Source: Psilocybe cubensis (lineage: Eukaryota). Taken from it: a stretch of DNA of 64,000 nucleotides. Positions within the stretch are counted from its first letter, which is position 1. Every line of letters starts with the position of its first letter. A program made the translations under genes and the position numbers. A model generated the notes under the pieces. The model did no database searches. It was not told the DNA's origin and saw nothing but the letters and a program-made list of their open reading frames with translations. This document shows, in pieces, positions 28,322-42,424 of the stretch. The stretch is from positions 620,001 through 684,000 of the forward strand of contig CM039002.1 of the NCBI GenBank assembly GCA_017499595.2, given 5' to 3'.

Positions 28322-31145
28322 AACACCTTGCCACCGAGCGGAACGCTGGTTAGAGGGTCAGTATCCTTTAGTAGTAACGGGGCTTTGTTGATGGTAGAAG
28401 TCTTTGGGAATTGTGCCTAGAGGAAAGGAAGAGTCGATTTGAAGCCTTATAAAACATGGGTTTGTGGCACTCAGGAATGACAGAAGGATAAACGATGTAT
28501 AGGGCTACCAGTGCTCAGGTGCGTCAGAAGAAGCAGTGAAAATGATCAATCAATCATTTAACGCTTTGGAACATTCTTGAAACGCCTTACTTGAAGTGAA
28601 ATGAATGGGGTACTTTGATAGTTTTCCATTTTGGTAGACTGGAGGTGGCAGCATATATACTAAAAATAGGAGCTTTGGTGGACCCCATGTTCTGCCCATC
28701 ACTTAAAGTTAAACACGGCATCTAGTCTCTGGAATCCCACCGTCATTCAGGAGAGGGCACGAAAAAGTTAAAATTTTAGTCTTTTTTTGGAACCTCTCCC
28801 CGTGGGGGGCATAAGGCCCAATTGTTTCCGAAGTTTCGAAATCTATCTCTGATGAAGATAGGGGCGTTATATATGAGTGAGGACACTTGCAGGTCAAGTG
28901 AGTGCAGGGACTTCGAACTCTTAGTAGTCTACCAGCAAATTTATTCAGCATAACAGTGATAGATTATACATATTGTGTAGATCTTGAAATAACATTTTAC
29001 CTTGAACCCCACCCAGTAGACCCACTGCCAGTTAAACAGGATCAAGTTTATTGTATGCATTCTCAATGACATCCATTCTTTGATTATCCCTGGGGGTGAT
29101 TTTACACCTAAAGGGCTTAGGCGATAAAGTAATTCCCTTGCGTAGATGGTTACATGTAATGCATGTATGTGATGTAGGGGTCCACTCACGTCTTTGTACT
29201 CGACTTCTATTTCTCTCCAGTGCTGGGTTACCTCACCATCAATCGGGGAAATGTCGAATGCCCAAAGAAGACGCATGACGGCAAGACTCTGTCAGCAATG
29301 ATTAGAGCGAACACAACTTCGAGCGACAATGACTATACAATGTTTGATTTTGCGAGGTGGATTCCGGGGCATATTCGCTAAATAAAAGGGAAGCCGGCAT
29401 TCAATGTGCCGTATATTCTATTGAAAGTGAAGGTCTAGAAACGTACCTTACCACACCCAAACATAAAGTTTAGACCGATCGTGTAACCTTTGTTAAGGCC
29501 TGGCTTTGTCCCATCTGGCGTCATCAAGTACCTCTCTGGCCAAAACTCTTCCGGCCGTTCAAACAGTTCTGAAAAATGCTTTTAAACATCGATAATAATT
29601 AAACAGCAACACATTACACACCAGGGTCGTGCATCATTCCCCCTAAGAACGGTAGAAATACTTAGACGGTGCCCAAGTTAACGGGGTAATTGACGTACAC
29701 ATGTTAATGAAGATTGTAGCACCCATTGGAATGATATATTCATCATACTTGGAATGACAAATGTCAAGACGCACACCAATCCGCAGAAGGAATATTTCCT
29801 CACTTGAAAGTCTTTTCCTGCAGCGTGCGGTACTCCACTTGGACCAACAGATCTTATACGAAACACCTAGTTGATTCAAATGTCACCAATTTTCAAAATG
29901 CAAATCTAAAGTGGTACAAAGAGCAAACCTCTTTTATTAATGCTTGAACGTATGGCAAGTGATCTATATCGGAGGCAAATGGAAGTCTTTCCCGACTGAC
30001 AACAGCGTCAAGTTCCTCTTGCGCTTTTTGCAGAGACTCAGGTGATTTGAGAAGGCAAAGAATTAAGGATTGGATAAGCGCCGCTGAAGTCTCAGTACCT
30101 CCATCCAACATGACTCCTCCAATATACCTAAATGTTGCGAGGTCAGTCCTAATAAAAAAATGCAACTGTAACACCCACCCTAGCATTTCCCTGTTTACCA
30201 CATCACCTGGCATTTTTTCCAAGAGGCCTTCCATAATAGTCCCTCCACCTACTGGGCCATGTCTGAATTCCTGCTCCGTGTGATCAAGCAGGGAGAAATA
30301 CAACATTCGCTGAAGTTGACGTGTCTTTCTCCAGAGTTTTTTCCACGGCGCCCAGCGCTCTGGAACGTATTTGAGAACAGGGAAGAGATCTACCGGAGCC
30401 GCATCGCCAGGTGAAAGCATCTTTGTAAAATGGTGGAAATAGTCGCAAAAAAGGGTAAAATCTTGAGAGTCGATCCTAGGAGCAGGCTTCCCATAGAGAA
30501 CCGATGCCATAAACGAGTACGTGAAACGAGTGATATGGGTGTAGATGTGCTGCAGAACTCGTATCAGTATCCGGAACGGGAAAATAAGTGGTATCGGGTC
30601 GTGTACTTCGGGTTGGTGTAAGATGTCGTACAATAACCGTGCCGACTCTTTCTCAGCAACATGAAGATGAGTTTGGACAGCTTGAAGTGAGACCAGAGAC
30701 TGCATTGCCTTGCGCCCAAATTTCCAAACCTGACTCTCTATACAAGTATCAGCGCAAGCAATAGTTCAACATTTAAGAATTCATGGACTGGCAGCACCCA
30801 CCGGATCCCGAGAATGCAAAGTAGTTCCCGCCAGTAACAACATCTAACGTGTGTGTATAAGGACGCTCGGAAGTCTCGTTAGCTCGATCTTCTAAAATTT
30901 CCTTAACAATTTTTGCGTTTGATAACACGATAATGGTCTCGTTAGCAATTTTCAGCTATTACACATATATCAATGCAGCTCAGAGGCTGGTTGCGAGTAA
31001 AACGTACAGAGAAAATTCCCCCGTAGTCTTTTGCCCATTCAGTAAACCTGGATCATCGCCTGAAATCAGCGGTAAAGAAAACGAGTAATGCAGGCAAGGT
31101 CGCACTTGAGAAAAGCGAATTTGCTGGGAATCATATGAATATTGC

Positions 31146-31154
31146 CGAGTAGTG
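31146..31154. repeat. target site duplication, left copy (CGAGTAGTG)
   Basis: Identical to 39432-39440; a single copy restores the P450 reading frame (P-L-L-G). Confidence 0.95.
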
Positions 31155-31182
31155 CAGAAAGGTTCGTCCACGAGTTTTTTTC

Positions 31183-31216
31183 GCGCGGACAGTCTGGCGG
31201 ACAGTCCGCCGGACTC
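31183..31216. repeat. left subterminal repeat array (12-bp period, core CGGACAGTCYG)
   Basis: GCGCGGACAGTCTGGCGGACAGTCCGCCGGACTC, starting at base 29 of the element. Confidence 0.9.
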
Positions 31217-31610
31217 TGGGTGTATCGTGGGTATTTGTGACCATAGTGTGACCTCCGGGCCACGTCGGGGGCCCACTTGCATGGTCACTGTTCGAGGCAG
31301 CGAGCTCAATGCTTTCCAACAATGCCCCGCCGCTTGATGCGCTACACGGCGCACGCATTGTTGTTGCCACTTGACACTACTGCCAAACACGTGAGAATTG
31401 GGCCGGCTTATTGCGGCTTCTTTTCCATTTTTGGATATTGTGGCTGGCCCAACGCAGCCACTCGTGTTTAGACGCGCTTTGTAGCGCCAAAGCTAGAAAT
31501 CTCTGCATTGACATACTATGTAGCTCTCTATAGGGAGATATATGTAATATGACAACCGAAAATCTATAAATTTGGCACAAGTTCTTGAGTTTTAGAGCAT
31601 AGTTTTAGCA

Positions 31611-34403
31611 ATGAACCCAGATAACCTACCTCCTGATCCTACTATATCACCTATTGGTCTTTGTCCAGGAAGATCCAACCGCCCATGTGGAAGACCTATG
31701 CCACCTATAGCTATATACAAAGCTACTGGATCTCCTTCCAAGAGGCATTTGAAAGGATCTCTCTGTCAAACTGTATGTGTTATTAACTTAGCTTATTGTG
31801 CAAGTCTAATTAATTGTCTAGTGTTCTGATTATAGGTGTTTGTACACCTATCATCATACTCCTGCATATATATATGAGGATGCCCAACGTCTTTTGCACC
31901 GAATTAATTTTCCTGATGATCCACAGGGCTATCCTCGCACTCTTAGACCTTATATTTCCATTTCAAACACTGCCAATCATTCTTCTTCTCAGCCAAATCA
32001 GACTCAACAAAGACGAGCTCAGTCCAACTCTACTGGTGTTATTCCTATTCCAATATCAGATAAACTACTCTGCACAGTTTCTACATGCTTTACAAAGTCA
32101 GGAACCCGAACTCAAGGGAGTAGAACTTGCATTGAAAATAAATGCAAGACCTGTTGTACCAAAGCTTGCAAAGATGCCATTTCTAAGCAAGCTTTTAGAA
32201 AGGCATGTCATGCCCATCGCCAGCCCGAAAATGTACCTTATGCTCCTGATATTTCAACTCCTGCTTCTCCAGAAAGAATCTCTCAAGTTCATTCTCCTCC
32301 TCTTCCTCCTCTTTCTACCCAATCTGTTACCCAAAACATTTCTATCTCACCACCACCGAGCCCTTTCAATATTTCTGCTTCTCAGGTCTCTCCAAATCAA
32401 TCCCCAAACCAGGATATGGTTATTTCTACACCACCTGCTACTCAGTTCGGACTTGGACAGGTTATTCCAAGAGGCCTGGCTCAACCTGTAGGAGGTACAT
32501 GGGCACAAAAGCGAACAGGATTACTTAGTCATACCCGAAACCTCAAATCTCTAAAAGTTAAACAACATGAAATGGATGAACAACGAAAAAGAACATGTAT
32601 TTTGGTTGTATATCACACTGTGAGTTCATATTCTTGTTTATATTCAAGCAGTTAATAATATTCTTCTAGAATGGACAGCCTCCTATTAGGCTTGAATATT
32701 ATATACAATCCTTTCCCCATTTTCGCTTGTCAGACTCTGCTGAGTTAATGAAAAACTTGGAGCTTCAGCCAACAACCAAACTGGATTACTGGAAAGGAGA
32801 ATGGGTAACTCTCACCATGGAAAGTGTTCTTACTGTTGAAAAGGGCCAAAGACTGATTTTAAAAATCCGTCCAAGCCTTAGAGAAACATTAGAGCACTGT
32901 CCTGGAATTGAAGATGAGCTCAAACTACAACCAAAGACATCACAAGCTTTGTTAGCCCAACAACACACCACATTAGTGTCGCCTATTCGTCAATCTGCAA
33001 TACAGGAAGCATCTTCTCTAACAATTACACATTCTACCTCAAGAAATCGGTCTGCTAGTCCAATTTTATCAAATCATATCCATATTCCTAGGAAGAAGCG
33101 CCCACATGGATATAGAACCCCAAATTCATCAGACAGTGATTTACCCCCACCACCAAAAGTTCTAAAGAAATCTCATAACTTACCACCACCACCAAAGGTT
33201 CTAAAGAAATCTCATAACTCTACAAAGCAGTGGCCGTTTGATTTCAAGGTCTATCAAATTCACAATGGATTTCTTCAAATGCAAGAAACACTATCCAAAT
33301 CTCAAACCTCTAGAAGCAACCCTTATATGAAGTCATCCAAGAAATCTGCATTATCTATTCGTCCAAGATCTCGTATAAGTGTCAAAGATGCTTTCTATGC
33401 TGCTTTTCCAGATGCTTCTTTTCACAAATCCACATTTTATGAACACAAATCTTATTGGAAAACATATGACAAAGATATTGTTGGCTATTTTGTGGACATG
33501 GGCAACTCGAAACAGGCAACATATAGGTCATTACAGGCTGCCTTAAAAAACCCCCAGGATATTCCAGATACCTTTTCTGAGTCCTCCTCTTCAGACAGCT
33601 TGGATGACTCAAGTTCTTCAGAAAACATCAGTCCTAGTGCTCGTGTCAGCCCTCTTTCCCATATTTCCTTGCCTCATATAGCTCAGTCTAATGTCAATGG
33701 TGGATTATTGACCAAAGAAAAGATATCCAGTCTCCGTCATCAAATCCAGGGTGATAAAGAATTACTTTGTTACGTTCTTATGGACCCTGAAGAAAGCATG
33801 TTTTTCTGTAATTCCAGAAAAACCTTTGAAGCTAGCTGCAGTCAAACTCCGGATAAATCAAAGAATCAACTTCTTTTAGATTGCATTGCCTAGTAAGTAA
33901 TTTTATACTGCTCTTAGATGGCTAGATTTACTAATTTGTATCTTCTACAAAGCTATGGTCCAGAGATACAAGCTCTTATTATTTCTGAGCTAAGAGAAAT
34001 GTTTCCTGAAGATTCAGAAGACATAGATATGTCAATTCTACAGCCTCTCACCTATGATTCAGTTATTGAAGAGGTGCTTTTTCCTGAAACAGTGACACTT
34101 CTCATTCAAGAAGATCTTCGGATTTCTATGCTAGAAGTAATGCAACTTTTGCAAGACAAGCATGCTATCACCAAGGATGCAGCAATATCTACTCCTACTA
34201 TAAAAGAAGAGAAGAGTGATAGTATTACCCTCACTGGCTCTGCAAAAGGAAAAGAGCGTGCTGTTATCAGCGGTGATATTATTGACCTGACCGTGGATTC
34301 TCCAGGCCAAAAACCTATCAAGCAGGATGTTTCTGCTCATCCTGGCATTGCTTTTGGTACCTGGGAAATCATTGACTTGACTTTAGAGCCTGATTCTCTG
34401 TAG
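31611..34403 (+). CDS. transposon accessory protein (~877 aa): Cys clusters, RTC4-like C-terminal domain, two IIDLT motifs
   Basis: Exons 31611-31772, 31822-32619, 32670-33892 and 33953-34403 join through GT-AG introns into one 2,634-nt frame. The splice creates AYYGP, followed by EEVLFPETVTLLIQEDL (RTC4-like pattern, recognised from memory). Cys cluster CTVSTC...CIENKCKTCC...C...CHAH. Confidence 0.8.
33141..33218 (+). repeat. 39-bp tandem duplication (LPPPPKVLKKSHN x2)
   Basis: Two adjacent near-identical 39-bp units, in frame. Confidence 0.9.
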
Positions 34404-34921
34404 CTACAGTAGCACTTTGTAACGATTACTTATATTACAATTGAACAAATTTACAGTTAATGCCAATCCGACGACCCAGAAATTGACGAAGTCGTGAGGG
34501 CGCGTGTAGTCACATGACCGTGTGCACATCCATCGTTTACACCTCCCAACACACCCGTTCGCTGTTTCCACCAACCAAGAGGCAGAGAGTATGTTACCAG
34601 GAATTTTCGGGCACGGAAATACACTGGCAACATACTCAAAACCACATCAACAACCCCCGGTCACTGAGAGGCGAGTAGAACAGCTCGCTCGTCAACGTCA
34701 AGACTCCCTGCAAGACCCGACCTCAAAATCCGTGCTGTAAGTCCGTCAAATCACTCCATCGAAATTTTTTGGATGACAACGGGCTCTGGCTTGTATTTGT
34801 AGCCGGAAACAAGTGCGAGTTTTTTAATTGTGGTATGTCTACAGCACTCTTCCCCAAGGAATGACCTGCTCATTGCGCTCATAGCTTCCGTCTCAATAAA
34901 TCCATCGGCCCTCTTTCCCTC

Positions 34922-35089
34922 AGTCGTTCATGCATCATGTTCACTGAGGTAAAGTTTCCACTCTCCCTTTAGCATCCTCTCGCCTAGTCACTAACTACAC
35001 TATTATCTAGTCTCGTGTCTTTCTCTAGGTAGATTGGAACATAGTCGTTCATGCATCATGTTCACTGAGTCTTGTGTCTTTCTCTAGGT
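34922..35089 (+). repeat. tandem pair: intron-containing copy (34922-35030) and intron-less copy (35043-35089)
   Basis: AGTCGTTCATGCATCATGTTCACTGAG-[GTAAAG..CTAAC..CTAG, 34949-35010]-TCTCGTGTCTTTCTCTAGGT versus AGTCGTTCATGCATCATGTTCACTGAG-TCTTGTGTCTTTCTCTAGGT. Confidence 0.9.
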
Positions 35090-35098
35090 CTGATAACG

Positions 35099-35904
35099 AT
35101 GACCTTCGACGACGTCAGACGGTTGAGAGTCGCGGTCTTTGGAGCAGGTGAGCTCCTTCCTCCGGTTAGTTGACTCACATGATGAACTCATAGCTAGTAT
35201 CAAGGCATGGGTGGCCTCACTTGTGCCCTCTCGTTAGCACACGAAGGGTTTCTCTATATCGATGTCTACGAAACTGCGCCCAACCTAGGTTTTGTAGGAG
35301 CAGGAATTCAACTTGCCCCCAATATGGCACGCATTCTCGATAAACTCGGCGTTTGGAAAAAGATCGAGTCCGAGGCTGTCTTAGTCAAGAGCACGAGCAT
35401 CAGACGTAAGTAATATCAGTTCTTGACATAGTAAATCAATGTGCTTAAATCTTCCCAGAGGGAACAACCGACAAAGAGCTCGGCTTTGTCGAGTTCGACT
35501 CCGTCAAAGATAAATATGGCTACGCTCACATGGTAGGACACCGTGCCTCGCTCGCTGGGAGCCTTTACGAAGGCTGCAAAGCACAATCTGCCATTACCTT
35601 TCACTTCTCGACTGCCGTATCTGAAGTGAATTTTGGCGGGGATGACAGGAAGCCATCGTTCTTGGCTACGCCATTAGTAGGTCCAGCCGTGCGAGTCGAG
35701 GCTGATATCATATTAGCCGCCGATGGTATCAAGTCGCTCACTCGAGCAGCAATGCTGAAGGAACTTGGTTCGACGGATCATGTGGTGGATTCTGGACAGG
35801 CTGCATATCGCATTATGCTGACCCGCGAGCAAATGAAGGATGATCCTGAGCTGTTGGAATTAATAGACGCTGACAGAGTTACTCGGTGGATTGGGGAGAA
35901 GCGG
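35099..35904 (+). pseudogene. 3'-truncated FAD-dependent monooxygenase (salicylate hydroxylase-like) captured in the transposon
   Basis: RVAVFGA/GMGGL (GxGxxG), GAGIQLAPN, HRASL, ADGIKS (DG motif) and AAYR, with two introns retained. Similarity appears to stop after RWIGEKR; no GD motif or C-terminal half follows. Confidence 0.85.
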
Positions 35905-36738
35905 CTACTTATTAACGAGCTCGCAGATGTCATGGGTGCGCTCACGCGGACGCCGACGGACTCAGAGCTCAGCGCAATCCTGTTCTCTGTACAACTCAAA
36001 AGTGGTATTCAGAATCGGTCTCTTCCCTTTTGCGACTCCCGTTCAATATTGTCTCCACAATGCTGCCCACAACCCCACAACCTCATCTCTCTCATCAACC
36101 GGACGAACGTTTCTCAACTCGACCTCAGTGTGCCAGAGTGATGTAGAACACGAAATGCCAATGTACCCCGGAAGCATGTATGCGCATCAATACTTAGGAA
36201 AGGAGGATGAGGATGAGGTGGTAGACATGCGTGACAACAGCGCGTGTGAAGGATGTTGGGCGTTGCGGAGGTGCTGCGAGTCAAGTCAAGGTGTGGGATC
36301 AGCATGGGTTGATATATGACGCGGTGAGTTTTCGGCATGTTAATGCGATTTCCTGCCTTCAGTTTCAATGTTTTTGATTCACGTTTGTTCTGGGTCTGGT
36401 TATTGATCGAGTGTTAGCACCCTAGCTTTCAATAAACTGGCATTCACACTTCACACTTTGTTGACGCCGTGCCCATATGTGTTTCTCAGTTTCATCAGTG
36501 GCAAAGCTTATTACAGCTTATTGTTGTGGGGTAGCGAGGCAATACTGGATGCATGTTTTGAAAAACTGCCGCTTGTTTGATAACACCAAGGATCACCCCT
36601 GGGCCGGGGTTATCGTGCGAGCGGCAGGCTTTCAAGACACAGAGCAACAACTAAACCCGGATTGCTGCTTGTTCACAACAACTAATGTAGGTTCCAACAT
36701 GATTTCTAATGCTCTTTATTACAACTTCCTACATATCA

Positions 36739-39026
36739 CTAATCGACTCTGGGTGTATCTGGCTTGAGTAAAAAATCCCTTGGGATTTCATGTGGATTTT
36801 TCCCTTTTTTCTCCAAATCCTTAATGATGTTTCGATTTCGCCTCTTGATTAACTCGTCCAAAAAGAATTCATATCTGTCGGCCTGCATCTCACGAACAAT
36901 GGCTTGATACCCTCCTAGCCAAGCGTTGGCTTGTTCTGCTGCAGATGAGTTAAAACGCCACTTCCCATCAGGCGTCATAAGCTCGGGCCATTTTGCTGGG
37001 TTACAATTGGCATTACATTTGTCGTCTTGAGCTTTATGTTTACACTTGAAATGGAATACGTCAACGGGTAATGCTGAGTGGGAAAAGTACGTGTCTTTCT
37101 CCTTTTCAAGCATTAACATAATTCGACAGTTATTGTCGTGCCAAAGAACTCCTGGAAGAGACTTTTGGGTAGGAAACAAAGTCTTCCAAAATGTCTGAAA
37201 ATTAAATAAGCAACAATTCTCTAGAAGCAAGAAAAATGACGCACCCGTACTCCGTTTGGGGCCTCTGAACCATAGAATGTTGCTCGTCCAAGAATTACAC
37301 CACACGATGCCACACACAGCTCTTCATTATGAGTGCGTCGCCTTCCAAACCGAGCTCGCAATGTTTGATTACCCTTCTCTGACTTCTCGTCACAGACACC
37401 ATTGGCGTCAATCAAAACCTCTTCATCGCCAAATATGGTTGACTGGCCATCATCAGTGGAAAAGGCATCAGTGGGCTGTGAGGTTTTGAGACGGGCAAGC
37501 CGAAGTTTTAATTGAAACATTGCTTTATTGTGGATATCGTTGTATGCTTCAAGAGCTCGGTGATCCTTCAGACTGCACGTTTGATAGCCCTCATCAATGG
37601 GAGCTGAGCAGCTAGTAACCGCACAGATAAGGTTCTGATCTTTATGTGTAGGGCAGAACCGATGTTTGACGGAATCCAAAGGAATATCGCAGTCATGAAT
37701 AGAGCAGGTAGGCCGTCCAATAGTTATGCCATCAGTAACCACAGAACGAAGGAAAGCTAGAATCAAGCATGAGTTATATATCACTAGAATCATAAATTTT
37801 CAAAATTTACTCTGTGTTCCATCGGGCAAATCATTATACCAGCAGCATAAATCACATACATGGTTCCAAGCTTCCTGACCAGTCCCTGCCATCCAAAGGT
37901 TCCGTCTCTTTAAGGCTTTTCTGAGGCGGATGGCTTGACTAGGCGCTACATGGTCAATTTGTAAGACCTCATCTTCTTCTTCCGAGTCTTCAAGAAGCCA
38001 GAAGAGACTAAGACCATTCCATACGTCATTGTGTTCTAGCACCATGCTTTTGGAATATGCTGCAGGAAGAGAGGATGACAGGGACTTTGAAGCTATTGCT
38101 TCATTATAGATGCGGGCACAATTTGAAGCAGAAGTCCTGTACACTCCAAGTTAATGGAAGAAATTCACAACAAAAGAAAGAAGCTACCAAGACGTCAACA
38201 TCATTGTCGTAAACAATTCCAACGTGGCAATGTCCATAAAAATTCCTTCTGTAACATGCAGAAAGGTGCGATGTATACGGTAAAATGTCCGAGTGGATTG
38301 TGCTCTATCTACCCAGTAGTTAGGGTAGTATCGAGTTTGGCATCCTGCGTTTATTATTGTTAGAAGGGGGAGTTTCAACAAAATAACAATACTAAACACA
38401 TACCCGAACAAAACATTGAAGTAGAAATACCCGGGATGGGTCCAAATGATTGTGTAAAAACAGTAACAGAACGGCTATGTGCTTCTTTCAGTGGACGTCG
38501 ATGGAGCTCATCCTTTTTAGAAGTCTTGGGCTTGATAACACATCGTGGATCAAGGCAATGACGAACAGGAGGCATTAGATGATAAAAGGCTCCGATTTTA
38601 GAATTAGTAGTGGTTTTAGCTTGATATATATGCTAACTCACCTATGCCATTCTGTCTTCCATAGTCAAGAAAGCATTGAATATGACGTTGACCAAAGGAA
38701 TGAACACAGCTTTCATCAACCCTAAAATTCCACGCAATATTGGCCATTGCACGCCAAATAATCTTCATAGCCTCATGATCGACACTTAAAGATTGTGCGA
38801 GAAAAGTGTGTACGTTCAGACGCAACCGTGCTGGACATTTGTCTTCACCCGCATCAGATTCTGCTAGTCCTGGTTGTTGTGACAGACAGATTGTTGGCTT
38901 TAGGAGTTGGATAAGTTCAATGAACTTCAAACATCCTTCAAAGTCCAAATATTTGGCAATACTAGCTTGGATTTGAAGGATTGATTGGAGAGTAGATGAA
39001 GAATATGCACTAGATGAAGAGGACAT
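36739..39026 (-). CDS. KDZ-superfamily-like transposase with CxC5- and CxC6-like Cys clusters (~6 exons)
   Basis: PPVRHCLDPRC...SMFCS/GCQTRYYPNYWV (CxC5-like); HVCDLC; VVTDGITIGRPTCSIHDC..RFCPTH..CAVTSC..TC..H (CxC6-like insert); RRRTHNEELCVASCGVILGRATFYGSE; WHDNNC; VDVFHFKCKH; CNP; FNSSAAEQANAWL. Exons join by GT-AG introns without evident stops. Family assignment is from motif memory, not a search. Confidence 0.85.
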
Positions 39027-39358
39027 AATGGTTGCAAGGTTAGAAGTTGTTCAACGATGTAATTGTATTAGCATTTTACATCTATTGTCTACTAAAACAG
39101 CTACAATAAATACTACCTAAACGGGCCTTGTCTATGGAAGTAGCACACCGCAGGAGTAACTGGTGGAAAAGGCGGAAAAATACAGGAGAGGCGGGGTGCC
39201 ATTAAAATATTAACCAGTGGCACTTAGCATTCTCATGGCCAGGTCGGGGGCGGGGGGCGGAGGGCGGTAATGTGTCGGGGAAGGCCACTGATCGCTGTAG
39301 AGCAGAGTGAGCACGGCTGTCACTCACCCAAGTCACACAGGCCCACCCAAAGGCCTAT

Positions 39359-39404
39359 GAGTCCGGCGGACAGTCCGGCGGACAGTCTGGCGGACAGTCC
39401 GCGC
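39359..39404. repeat. right subterminal repeat array (12-bp period, core CGGACAGTCYG)
   Basis: GAGTCCGGCGGACAGTCCGGCGGACAGTCTGGCGGACAGTCCGCGC, whose outer edge is base 28 counted from the right end. Confidence 0.9.
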
Positions 39405-39431
39405 CATTTTTTTTCGCAAACCACCTGTCCT

Positions 39432-39440
39432 CGAGTAGTG
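39432..39440. repeat. target site duplication, right copy (CGAGTAGTG)
   Basis: Identical to 31146-31154. Confidence 0.95.
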
Positions 39441-40179
39441 GGAGTGTCGGAGGGCCAGGTGGTAGGCTTTTGTCGCGTCTGCCTATCTTTAGAAGCTTGA
39501 TTAAGGCCCACACAGCGCTGCATGCGAATAGTGTGTAGAATTTAAGGTTCATTTTGGAAGGTACGGATTCGAGATAGTCTGTGTGGTGGAAACCGAAGCA
39601 ACAGTAGAAGAATAAAAGGCCGAGAAGAAGTCACTTTATAACACTAGGAGTTTCTCAGGGACCGTGGAGTTCGAACAGTGCAACAGAACTTCGAAGTATC
39701 CATATTGGGAGGGAACAGAATCCAATCTGGGAATGGCGTTTCAATCAGATAGGGTCACCTTTCAATTGTCATTCAAAATGAAATTTCAAAAAACGAAAAA
39801 ACGAGGCCCATTTAGTCATGGTATTTGGGCGGAGATCATACTGCTAGTTTGAATTTTGAGGTTGGTCGCAAACTCTCAGCCACTGTGAAGAAAAAAACTG
39901 AGCCAAACGAAATCTGTGTCATGATTGTAGTCAGAGGACAATACTCAACTATCTGGGTTCTTGTATGATTCAGTGACAACGTGGATGTAGTTGGCTCTCA
40001 GGTACTAATCACGGTAGAGATGCTCGGAGATCTCCAGCGGTGAATGAATTTGGATTCAAAAGCCGTGATTACCCGGCATACGCCGTGTGCACATAAGTTT
40101 TAACTCTCTTGTTCTTCAACAGTTGTTAGTAAAGATGTACTCTGTATACACTACCGCTTCTGATATAACAGAGGTCTCG

Positions 40180-42424
40180 CTAAGTAGTGGATACAAGCGT
40201 ACTATATGCATCTTCAATTATATCCACCCTAAATTTATCCCTGGGAGTAATCCTGCACTTAAATGGTTTAGGCGATAAACTGATCCCCTTTGATAAGATA
40301 TTTAGATAGGATATAGATATGCAGCATAAAATCCGCTCACATCATTGTATTCATCCTGTATGCCCATCTGCTTTTGTGCCGAATCACCATCAGTCGGAGA
40401 AAAATTAAATGCCCAAAGAAGACGCATCACGGCAAGATTCTTATTATCATAATGAAATCAGTCAACGATAATTTTTGAGAAATACTAGGTAAGTACTCGT
40501 ACAATGTTCGAGTTCGCGAGGTGAATCCCGGGGCATATGCGCTAGTAAAATCAACAGACAATTGAGCACAGGTGCGTTGTGATGTGGTTCGATAACGAGG
40601 AGTATACCTTGCCACTTCCAAATACAAAATTTGGGCGGGTAGTATAGCCTTTTTTAAGGCCTGGTTTTGTTCCGTCGGGGGCCAGTAGAAATCTCTCTGG
40701 CCAGAAGTCATCCGGCCGTTCGAAAAGATTTAACTATAATCTAAGTGCCAAGTATGCGTGTCAGCATATGTCAGGATATTACTTACCTGGATCATGCATT
40801 ATACCCCCTTCAGTCGGTGTATAAGTATTTCAGAAAGGCCTAATTTTTGCACGAACAACCCACATGTGTTGATAATGATTGGAGCTCCTTTTGGGATGAT
40901 GTACCCTCGATACTTATGGAGCCAAAATAGATTGGTGGAAAGACATATTAGAGCTCACTTTACAGTCTTGGGACGCTGTATGAGGTGCGCCGGACGGTAC
41001 GGCAGGCCTACTGCGATGAATCTAAAAAATAAATTGAAATCACTCCCTTGCGAGCAACAAAAGGAGCATCATATTAAACAAACTTCATTGATTATTGCTT
41101 GGACGTACGGTAGGTTTTCTATATCGCGGGGCTTTGGAAGCCTTTCTTGACCAACAACACTGTCAATTTCCTCTTGCGCCTTTTTTACCGAAGCAGGAGA
41201 TTTGAGCAGGGAAATAATCAACGACTGCATGAGGGACGCGGAGGTTTCAGTGCCTCCATCCATCATGACTCCCCCAATGTACCTATACGTTCAATAAGCA
41301 TCAGTCATGCGGAAAAAGTAGGTACAGGTCAGAGGTCAAGCACGTACGCAATCATCTCCCGACTCAGACCAAGTTCTGACTGCTTTGCTAAAATATTTTC
41401 AACAATCGATCCATCTCCTAGTCCAGCGTTGTAGTTCTTCTCTGATAATGCAAGTAGAGAGAAGAATAATTTTCGCTGAAGTATCCGCGTCTTCTTCCAG
41501 AGCTTCTTCCATGGTGCAAATGCCTCTGGAATATATTTTAGAATGGGTATCAAGTCGACGGGAGCAGCATCGGGGGCTACCATCCTCCCAAAATGACGGA
41601 AGTAGTTGGAGAAGTCAGAAACGTTGGGTGAATCACATCCTGCTTCGGGCTTTCCAAAGATCACTGATGTTACCAAAGCGAAGTTAAATCGAGTTATATG
41701 GGTGTATATGTCCTATACATTTATATCAGCATGCCGCAGCGCACAAAGAACAACAATAAATATATTTCAGGTTGGTGTAGAATGTCAAACAACAACCGTG
41801 TCGACTCGATCTCTGCCGCAGGATGATGTATATGAACGGCTTGAGGCGACACCAGTGGCTGCATCGCCTTGCGTCCAAATTTCCAAATGTGAGCATCTGC
41901 AACCAAGGCAATTATGAGTATATCATTCGGCAGGGATCAAAAAAGAAGAGAGTTTCGACCAGAATTAACAAGAGCAAAATAGTTGCCTTCAGTTATGGCG
42001 TTTAACGAATGCAGAACAGGCCGGTTGGACGTTTCATTTGCCCGGTCTTCTAGCAGCTCCTTCACAATTGTTACATCTGACAGTACAATCATCGTTTCGT
42101 TTGCTACTTTCACCTGAGGCGCCAACGTCAGCAAAAGGCATAGAACCATCATCAAGGAGAAAATACCGAGAAAATGCCACCGTATTCCTTGGACCATTCT
42201 GTGAGTCTGGAATATTGTCTGTAGTCAGTGGTGAATGGCTAGTATCAGCAAGATGAGCCAAACTTGAGAAAAAGAAATCGATAAGGGAGCAAGTGAATAT
42301 TTCCAAGAATTGGGATGGTCGGTGGGCCAGGTGGTAGGCTCTTGTCTCGCCTGCCCATCAGAAGAAGCTTCAGCGCAATCCACACAGCGCCGGAGGCAAA
42401 TAACAAGGAGATTTTTTGGTACAT
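40180..42424 (-). pseudogene. cytochrome P450 (P450-C), probable pseudogene with two splice-site substitutions
   Basis: Full motif set present ([39 protein letters not shown]). The donor after ..HQPE reads AT instead of GT (41765) and the acceptor before LFERP reads AA instead of AG (40730), where both paralogs have canonical sites. Confidence 0.75.

What the first reader, a model, noticed from the sequence alone, without database searches (positions are those of the whole stretch)
31155..31260. Unusual ends: weak TIRs but equidistant palindromic subterminal arrays
Seen: the left end CAGAAAGGT.. and the reverse-complemented right end AGGACAGGT.. match at only 6 of 9 positions. After a T7 (left) or A8 (right) tract, GCGCGGAC begins at base 29 or 28, followed by 12-bp-period copies of the interrupted palindrome CGGAC-A-GTCCG; the right end has one more unit. 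A 25-mer (GCGGACAGTCTGGCGGACAGTCCGC) is a perfect direct repeat at 31185-31209 and 39378-39402, and looser inverted similarity (GTGGG..GTGAC..GTGAC) extends to ~100 bp. Inference: the transposase binds internal sites and cuts at a fixed ~28-bp distance across a bent A-tract spacer. The CpG-rich CGG-N5-CCG sites could be methylation-sensitive.
Basis: partly seen in the sequence, partly recalled or inferred. Interest (0 to 1): 0.7.

Follow-up and report, generated by a model that had tools for sequence, protein, structure and literature searches.

The report
Fixed-register palindromic ends of mushroom transposon
A recently mobile jumping gene of a mushroom lacks the usual matching ends; each end instead carries a short end-specific tip and a palindromic repeat array set 31-32 bases inside, a layout kept in related elements, which suggests how this little-studied transposon group finds where to cut.

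Summary
The target duplication is 8 bp, the termini match at 4 of 9, and the array starts at the same base at both ends. The element (31155-39432) is a two-gene CxC5/CxC6 DDE transposon (KDZ/Mutator-like) with 4 near-identical copies and 10 MITEs; other strains have an empty site. In 27 of 28 ends of TSD-flanked copies the first half-site is at base 32, so this copy is not decayed. A second family and two metagenome ends keep the array at base 33 with a different spacer and no long A/T tract, so A-tract bending is unsupported. A pure ruler also fails: within the family the first 31 bases are as conserved as the array. A third family keeps the CAG/GAG polarity and equal spacing but uses another repeat. 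Best reading: a bipartite end (sequence-read tip plus protein-loading array in fixed register). No binding was tested. The scan found this family before on another copy (e1-7270424). New variant of a known kind.

The parts
31147..31154 (.). Left copy of the 8-bp target-site duplication (GAGTAGTG)
   Evidence: 8-bp TSD in 13 of 13 paired copies
31155..39432 (.). Whole element, 8278 bp, inserted in the first coding part of a cytochrome P450 gene on the minus strand; three more copies differ at one base
   Evidence: P450; empty site in other runs
31155..31185 (+). Left tip plus spacer, 31 nt, beginning CAGA (end downstream of the transposase); contains T7 at 31175-31181
31186..31214 (.). Left array: 5 alternating CRGAC half-sites, 12-bp period, first at element base 32
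31237..31252 (+). Inner GTGAC pair (bases 83 and 94); also at 84/94 in family 2 and 83/92 in metagenome relative L067
31611..34403 (+). Accessory gene (877-aa model P0121): two Cys clusters, predicted beta-grasp domain at residues ~305-396, RTC4-like domain
   Evidence: homologues in L067 and family 3
35094..35913 (+). Captured host-gene fragment, 99% identical to G000:C8:2271105-2271924; looks like a flavin monooxygenase (label from recalled motifs; no Pfam hit for the ORF scanned)
36739..39026 (-). Transposase gene (673-aa model P0001, spliced): CxC5 + CxC6, RNase H-like core, candidate triad D360/D542/E609, DxxH at 567-570
39319..39336 (-). Right inner GTGAC pair (bases 97 and 110 from the end)
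39361..39401 (.). Right array: 7 alternating CRGAC half-sites, first at base 32 from the end
39402..39432 (-). Right tip plus spacer, 31 nt, beginning GAGG when read inward (end upstream of the transposase); T8 on the + strand at 39407-39414
39433..39440 (.). Right copy of the 8-bp target-site duplication

Best explanation
These are the working ends of a young cut-and-paste DDE transposon of a CxC5/CxC6 lineage (KDZ- and Mutator-related). Each end is bipartite. A tip of about 20-30 bp has its own sequence at each end (CAG... downstream of the transposase, GAG... upstream) and is read by the transposase near its active site. An array of alternating CRGAC half-sites (5 left, 7 right) loads several copies of an element-encoded DNA-binding protein and must sit in register, 31-32 bp (about three helical turns) from the cut, so that array-bound and tip-bound subunits meet. 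Cutting at both tips and joining across an 8-nt stagger gives the 8-bp duplication at targets with no clear consensus. Shown: boundaries, TSD, recent mobility, conservation of tip, array and distance, DDE-like fold. Inferred: binding, which protein binds, the need for register, the chemistry.
For: Four full copies differing at 1 base and 10 MITEs of 569-631 bp, each with its own 8-bp TSD. Empty site (skip of 8286 = 8278 + 8) in a contig of run X9 and in 17 and 19 reads of X14 and X15; 123-194 reads with mixed flanks break at each of 31155 and 39432. First half-site at base 32 in 27 of 28 family-1 ends of TSD-flanked copies (4 sub-lineages); at base 33 at both ends of family-2 copies L051 and L052, and in metagenome ends L067 and L085. 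Among six representative ends the array is 76-97% identical and the spacer 14-57%. L067 carries both genes (73% identity in the catalytic exon), so the layout extends to another organism. Gene-less MITEs keep tip and array at about 5-6% divergence against 27-29% further in. Solo end L010 has a 1-nt loss in the tip balanced by a longer T run. Family 3 (41% transposase identity, accessory homologue at hhalign 98.8%) keeps 8-bp TSDs, the CAG/GAG polarity and near-equal repeat positions (43/56/68 and 42/55/67). Transposase model pLDDT 87; best structural match ISCth4 of the IS256/Mutator group, Z 10.8, rmsd 6.2, 310 aligned. Precedents read as passages: Muta1 terminal motif plus 12-bp subterminal repeats that raise binding and excision (PMC5499845); IS911/IS2 attack at a fixed distance from a subterminal site (PMC7780238).
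Against: No binding or cleavage data. Exceptions: L009 (TSD intact) has a right end with 3 half-sites at base 31; L053 (TSD intact) has a left array at 36 and no right array; L103 also has a right tip without an array; L017 36, L050 right 17, L102 left 29 (solo or no TSD). Only 4 of 6 ends of TSD-flanked family-2 copies fit. Reads show +1/-1 at 39406 (22 and 6 of 293 in X14; 7 and 16 of 253 in X15). The termini of L067 and L085 were placed by their CAG start, without a TSD (chance of CAG[AG] within 3 positions 0.024 and 0.021), and L085 holds no element gene. Family 3 has no CGGAC array, so the palindrome is not universal. Copies within a sub-lineage are near-identical and are not independent tests. 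Equal distances could be inherited from an ancestral TIR.
Confidence: 0.6

Rival explanations
1. Pure ruler across a bent A-tract: protein bound at the array cuts a fixed distance away whatever the intervening sequence, helped by an intrinsic A-tract bend.
For: Spacer length 31-32 with spacer identity of 14-57% between lineages; T7-9/A8-9 tracts in family 1; IS911/IS2 precedent.
Against: Longest A/T run is 4 in family 2, 3 in L067, 4 in L085; tip and spacer are as conserved as the array inside family 1; CAG/GAG starts are kept in three families; MITE-A interrupts the tract with an A.
Confidence: 0.12
2. The ends are an old, imperfect 70-100-bp TIR whose outer part drifted; equal distances are inherited and need not be functional.
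For: Family 2 has 15 of 17 matches at the tips and family 3 an imperfect TIR over its first ~30 bases; L009 and L053 carry perfect TSDs with altered or missing arrays.
Against: Left and right spacers of family 1 are only 44% alike yet equal in length; the two families differ by 1 base at both ends together; homopolymer tracts, which slip easily, keep their total length across MITE sub-lineages; the C/G and A/G differences at bases 1 and 4 persist in families 1 and 2.
Confidence: 0.15
3. The arrays are regulatory: sites for the accessory protein or a host Zn2Cys6 factor (CGG triplets; recalled) that drive the two inward-facing genes or counter silencing, with the tips alone directing cleavage.
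For: Both genes start near an end and read inward; two family-2 right ends keep the tip but not the array; the accessory protein has Cys clusters.
Against: Gene-less MITEs conserve the arrays as strongly as the tips; a promoter element has no reason to keep a fixed distance from both termini.
Confidence: 0.13

Closest known systems
Zisupton and Cryptococcus KDZx1 (Huang et al., 10.1101/2024.08.15.608186, passages; Kojima 2025, PMC12730594, text parts 1-4 of 7 and Table S1 rows)
   Same: 8-bp TSD; CxC domain with a DDE-type core; KDZx1 has two ORFs and no detected TIR; 3 of 9 KDZ/Zisupton rows in Table S1 begin CAGA. Subterminal repeats in fish Zisupton are recalled from Boehne 2012, which was not held.
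   Different: CxC5+CxC6 rather than CxC4+SWIM; no PF18758 match; no CGGAC-type array seen by eye in the first 400 nt of those rows.
Kyakuja (Kojima 2025, PMC12730594)
   Same: No TIRs; Agaricomycete host; the 14 rows seen all begin (C/G)A(C/G).
   Different: Kyakuja-1/2_LB make 7-bp TSDs with CA..TG termini; the characterised families carry TET/JBP; this element has 8 bp, CA..TC, and no TET hit in the ORFs scanned. Their 5' ends show dispersed GGGCC-type motifs, not a 12-bp palindromic array (by eye, first 400 nt).
Pleurotus ostreatus 6,792-bp poMSH4 insert (Lavrijssen et al. 2020, PMC7641404, passages)
   Same: Multi-copy insertion of similar size with a CxC5/CxC6 ORF that disrupts a host gene.
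   Different: Not recognised there as a DDE transposon (a Copia link was proposed); 0 hits for TIR, target site or inverted repeat in the main text; its repeats have a BC5NWY signature. The GenBank supplements could not be read.
MULE Muta1 and IS256-family ISCth4 (PMC5499845, PMC7780238, passages)
   Same: 8-9-bp TSD, (C/D)xxH motif, best fold match; terminal motif plus 12-bp subterminal repeats, with unequal repeat numbers at the two ends of a MITE.
   Different: Muta1 has symmetric 145-bp TIRs (97% alike); here the tips are asymmetric, the repeats are palindromic, they start about 31 bp inside, and a second conserved gene is present.
RAG recombination signals, P element, Tn7/Mu ends (recalled; no paper read)
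   Same: Cleavage site and binding sites separated by a defined spacer; unequal numbers of sites at the two ends.
   Different: Other transposase lineages (Z 5.2-5.8 for RAG, Transib and P; 9.1-9.5 for TnsB); here both spacers have the same length.

Membership tests
KDZ class | KDZ transposase domain (PF18758) | tested here: not met
   No hit at E up to 1 for P0001, P0017, P0108; none of 96 genome matches lies at the 4 copies. hhalign against 6 own-genome KDZ domains was not significant but the profile was shallow.
KDZ class | CxC cysteine cluster associated with KDZ transposases | tested here: met
   CxC5 E 2.5e-30, CxC6 E 2.8e-26
KDZ class | RNase H fold with acidic triad | tested here: met
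   VIA-align rows 1-25 are DDE transposases and integrases; D360 and D542 nearly invariant, E609 invariant in 67 sequences; naming them catalytic is inference; Foldseek gave nothing at E 0.001
Kyakuja | 7-bp TSD | tested here: not met
   8 bp in 19 TSD-flanked copies of three families
Kyakuja | 5'-CA..TG-3' termini | tested here: not met
   CA..TC; family 3 read in the same orientation is also CA..TC
Kyakuja | No TIRs | tested here: met
   4 of 9 and 11 of 28 matches in family 1; family 2 has 15 of 17
Kyakuja / Zisupton / Dileera | Placement in the transposase tree | not tested
Zisupton | 8-bp TSD | tested here: met
Zisupton | CxC4 and SWIM domains (as stated by Huang et al.) | tested here: not met
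   Only CxC5 and CxC6 in P0001; only RTC4 in P0121
MULE | 8-10-bp TSD and (C/D)xxH motif | tested here: met
   8 bp; D567-V-F-H570 conserved
MULE | Long TIRs over 100 bp | tested here: not met
   Longest inverted pair is the 33-nt array
MULE | Cleavage through a hairpin on flanking DNA | not testable with these tools
   Needs biochemistry

The most novel reading that the evidence does not exclude
A two-protein transpososome with an end-pairing rule: the conserved accessory protein (Cys clusters plus a DIX/PB1-like beta-grasp that could polymerise) coats the 12-bp-period array and positions the CxC5/CxC6 transposase three turns away, and only a CAG end (5 half-sites) paired with a GAG end (7 half-sites) is cut, in the manner of the 12/23 rule. 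The repeat (CRGAC here, TRAAC in family 3) would co-evolve with that protein.
Probability: 0.15. Interest if true: 0.85.

Novelty: new variant of a known kind. Interest (0 to 1): 0.52.

Why it matters
I found no mechanistic study of KDZ-type transposons in my searches, and the CxC5/CxC6 lineage is widespread in mushroom-forming fungi (245 hits), including the insertion behind commercial sporeless oyster mushrooms. This family is young, polymorphic between strains, has intact reading frames and natural ~600-bp MITE substrates. Its end grammar (polar tips, 5/7 half-sites, 31-32-bp register) is now defined well enough to test directly how a transposon without true TIRs recognises and pairs its ends. 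It also gives a signature for annotating elements that TIR-based finders miss. Subterminal repeats and fixed spacing have precedents in other DDE systems, which caps the surprise.

Tried and rejected
9-bp TSD: fits this site only; rejected by 12 other paired copies and by read breakpoints. Filing as Kyakuja, my first reading: dropped after the TSD, termini and PF18758 tests. Single-strand hairpin as the function: z -1.2 and -2.0 against shuffles, weak. Target preference: no consensus in 19 TSDs, GC 43%. hhalign to own-genome KDZ domains: not significant, shallow profile. Foldseek: no match at E 0.001 for either model; the accessory model matched only beta-grasp folds at Z up to 6.8 and its other domains were barely tested, so no DNA-binding fold was assigned. 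Protein atlas: one unnamed cluster at 0.85. No relatives in viral or prokaryotic collections. No RNA holder listed. 23 of 25 metagenome pattern hits were set aside: no transposase match by tblastn and no matching tip. Small-share run X11 gave only short pieces. Extending L050's short right end to a more distant TSD: nothing end-like found. Literature searches returned no description of such ends; one search returned nothing on methylation. Decayed CxC6 loci at C5, C6, C11 and C13 had no array in the 20 kb fetched and their ends were not defined.

Full report
Observation. A two-unit pattern matches 96 times (both strands) in the genome and its reversed control 0 times. One correction: the element ends at 39432. 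At this site both an 8-bp and a 9-bp duplication fit, but all 13 paired copies have 8 bp and a right end reading GAGGACAGG inward. Reads of runs X14 and X15 with mixed flanks break at 31155 (194 and 124 reads) and 39432 (134 and 123). With the true end the tips match at 4 of 9, and the array starts at the same base on both sides.

The element. 31155-39432 (8278 bp) splits a cytochrome P450 coding sequence. Three other copies differ from it at one base; that base gives Trp here and, by my reading of the codon, Arg in the others. The site is empty in a contig of X9 and in 17 and 19 reads of X14 and X15. The minus strand encodes a 673-aa protein with CxC5 and CxC6 (P0001, labelled Psilocybe cubensis by its source), with 245 relatives among 514 candidates; the named hits among the 120 listed are Agaricomycetes. 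Its model (pLDDT 87) aligns best to ISCth4 (Z 10.8, rmsd 6.2, 310 residues), then Tn5, TnsB, IstA and integrases; Foldseek found nothing at E 0.001. D360, D542, E609 and a DxxH motif are conserved in 67 sequences. It does not match PF18758. The plus strand encodes an 877-aa protein with Cys clusters, a predicted beta-grasp and an RTC4-like domain, with 342 relatives at E 0.001. Between the genes lies an 820-bp fragment 99% identical to a host locus.

Is the spacing fixed? Family 1 has 14 TSD-flanked copies: 4 full, 9 MITEs of 580-631 bp and L009 (569 bp). The first CGGAC is at base 32 in 27 of 28 ends; L009's right end has 3 half-sites at base 31. These are 4 sub-lineages, not 28 independent tests. 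Two solo left ends sharing one flank give 32 (a 1-nt tip loss balanced by T9) and 36. Family 2, known only from ~700-bp MITEs, has the same array, CAGA and GAGG tips and 15 of 17 tip matches. Its three TSD-flanked copies give 33, 33, 33, 33, 36 and one end with no array. Copies without a TSD give 33/17 (L050), 29/33 (L102), 33 (solo L061), a right tip without array (L103), and an old copy at C6:2538133 with clearly different spacings read by eye. Raw reads show minority +1/-1 variants in the right T tract (22 and 6 of 293; 7 and 16 of 253). Of 25 metagenome pattern hits, L067 carries both genes (73% identity in the catalytic exon) and L085 shares family 2's tip palindrome; both put the array at base 33 behind a CAG start. 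Those two termini lack TSD proof (chance about 0.02 each). Across six representative ends the array is 76-97% identical and the spacer 14-57%.

What fails. The longest A/T run in the spacer is 7-9 in family 1 (5 in L009's right end) but 4, 3 and 4 in family 2, L067 and L085, so a bent A-tract is not general. The spacer is not indifferent either: between autonomous and MITE ends, bases 1-31 differ at 3 of 62 positions on each side, the arrays at 3 of 58 and 5 of 82, inner sequence at 141 of 480 and 64 of 236. On methylation, 58 of 89 half-sites are CGGAC and 25 are CAGAC, the CpG transition; the outermost half-site is never CAGAC in 17 distinct arrays. That fits past methylation and tolerance at inner sites, and leaves the outer site open. 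No methylation data were available.

A third family. G000:C11:1293847-1300900 (7054 bp) and a MITE on C3 have 8-bp TSDs, a transposase 41% identical to P0001 and a convergent accessory homologue. The GAG tip again lies upstream of the transposase and the CAGAAG tip downstream. It has no CGGAC array; it has an imperfect TIR over the first ~30 bases and T(G/A)AAC repeats at 43/56/68 and 42/55/67. Polarity, near-equal spacing and a 12-13-bp period persist while the repeat changes. Both pentamers fit YRRAC, which is a weak lead only.

Mechanism. The best reading (0.6) is a bipartite end: an end-specific tip read by the transposase, and an array that loads several subunits in fixed register about three turns inside. 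[quoted passage not shown] Rivals are a pure A-tract ruler (0.12), an inherited decayed TIR (0.15) and a regulatory array (0.13). Which protein binds is unknown.

Comparison and novelty. It works like a Zisupton/MULE-type element but fails the Kyakuja tests (7-bp TSD, CA..TG; PMC12730594, text parts 1-4 of 7) and lacks CxC4/SWIM and PF18758. In Kojima's Table S1 I saw only the first 400 nt of 14 Kyakuja rows (28 of 76 places) and 9 KDZ/Zisupton rows; none showed this array by eye. Cryptococcus KDZ1 has 236-bp TIRs and KDZx1 none detected, both with 8-bp TSDs (10.1101/2024.08.15.608186, passages). A CxC5/CxC6 insert in Pleurotus MSH4 was described without ends (PMC7641404, passages; its GenBank supplements could not be read). 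Passages of PMC9297572, PMC9977147, PMC5751038 and PMC12568894 added nothing on such ends. Searches found no description of them, but Iyer 2014 and Boehne 2012 were not held and Repbase was not available, so related entries may exist. The scan had noted this family on another copy; those notes led me to test and drop the Kyakuja label, and they are not counted as evidence.

Verdict. Real and family-wide, not decay. A new variant of known transposon end designs in a poorly described lineage, and directly testable. Interest 0.52.

Noticed in passing
window 37895: The only difference between this copy and the other three is a CpG-type transition (CGG to TGG on the coding strand), Trp here against Arg, in a conserved stretch between CxC5 and CxC6; this copy may be impaired.
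   Followed up: partly
window 35094-35913; G000:C8:2271105-2271924: Recently captured host-gene fragment (99% identity); further cargo pieces match C10, C14, C5 and C9 at 74-93%, a Pack-MULE-like mosaic.
   Followed up: partly
window 29893-31146 and 39441-39630; also 41329-41712: The insertion disrupts a cytochrome P450 near its N-terminus, next to a second P450-like gene; the allele is intact in other runs.
   Followed up: partly
window 31611-34403: The accessory gene is strongly CpG-poor (o/e 0.29 against 0.70 for the transposase and 0.87 for the window) and ends in IIDLT motifs resembling SUMO-interacting motifs (recalled); the family-3 homologue ends similarly.
   Followed up: no
L071, L074, L075, L076, L078, L079: Longer arrays of the same 12-bp-period palindrome lie beside GTGTTCACAC/GTGTTTAGAC-type sequence in metagenome contigs with no CxC5/CxC6 match; they look like ends of another element kind (Harbinger-like is a recalled label).
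   Followed up: no
L051 (G000:C1:3923904-3924612) and relatives: Family-2 MITEs have no autonomous partner among the matches; they may be cross-mobilised, or the partner may be in other strains.
   Followed up: partly
L100:448-7501 (G000:C11:1293847-1300900): Complete single-copy 7054-bp CxC5/CxC6 element with long open frames, plus a 1.58-kb derivative on C3.
   Followed up: yes
L041:4000-4300 (G000:C11, about 1290100): A TET/JBP-like coding stretch (recalled motif) with multi-copy relatives lies about 3.7 kb outside the family-3 element, so it belongs to something else.
   Followed up: no
L065 (G000:C4:979796 and 986877): Two left ends 7 kb apart share one flank; one is interrupted by another inserted element right after its array.
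   Followed up: partly
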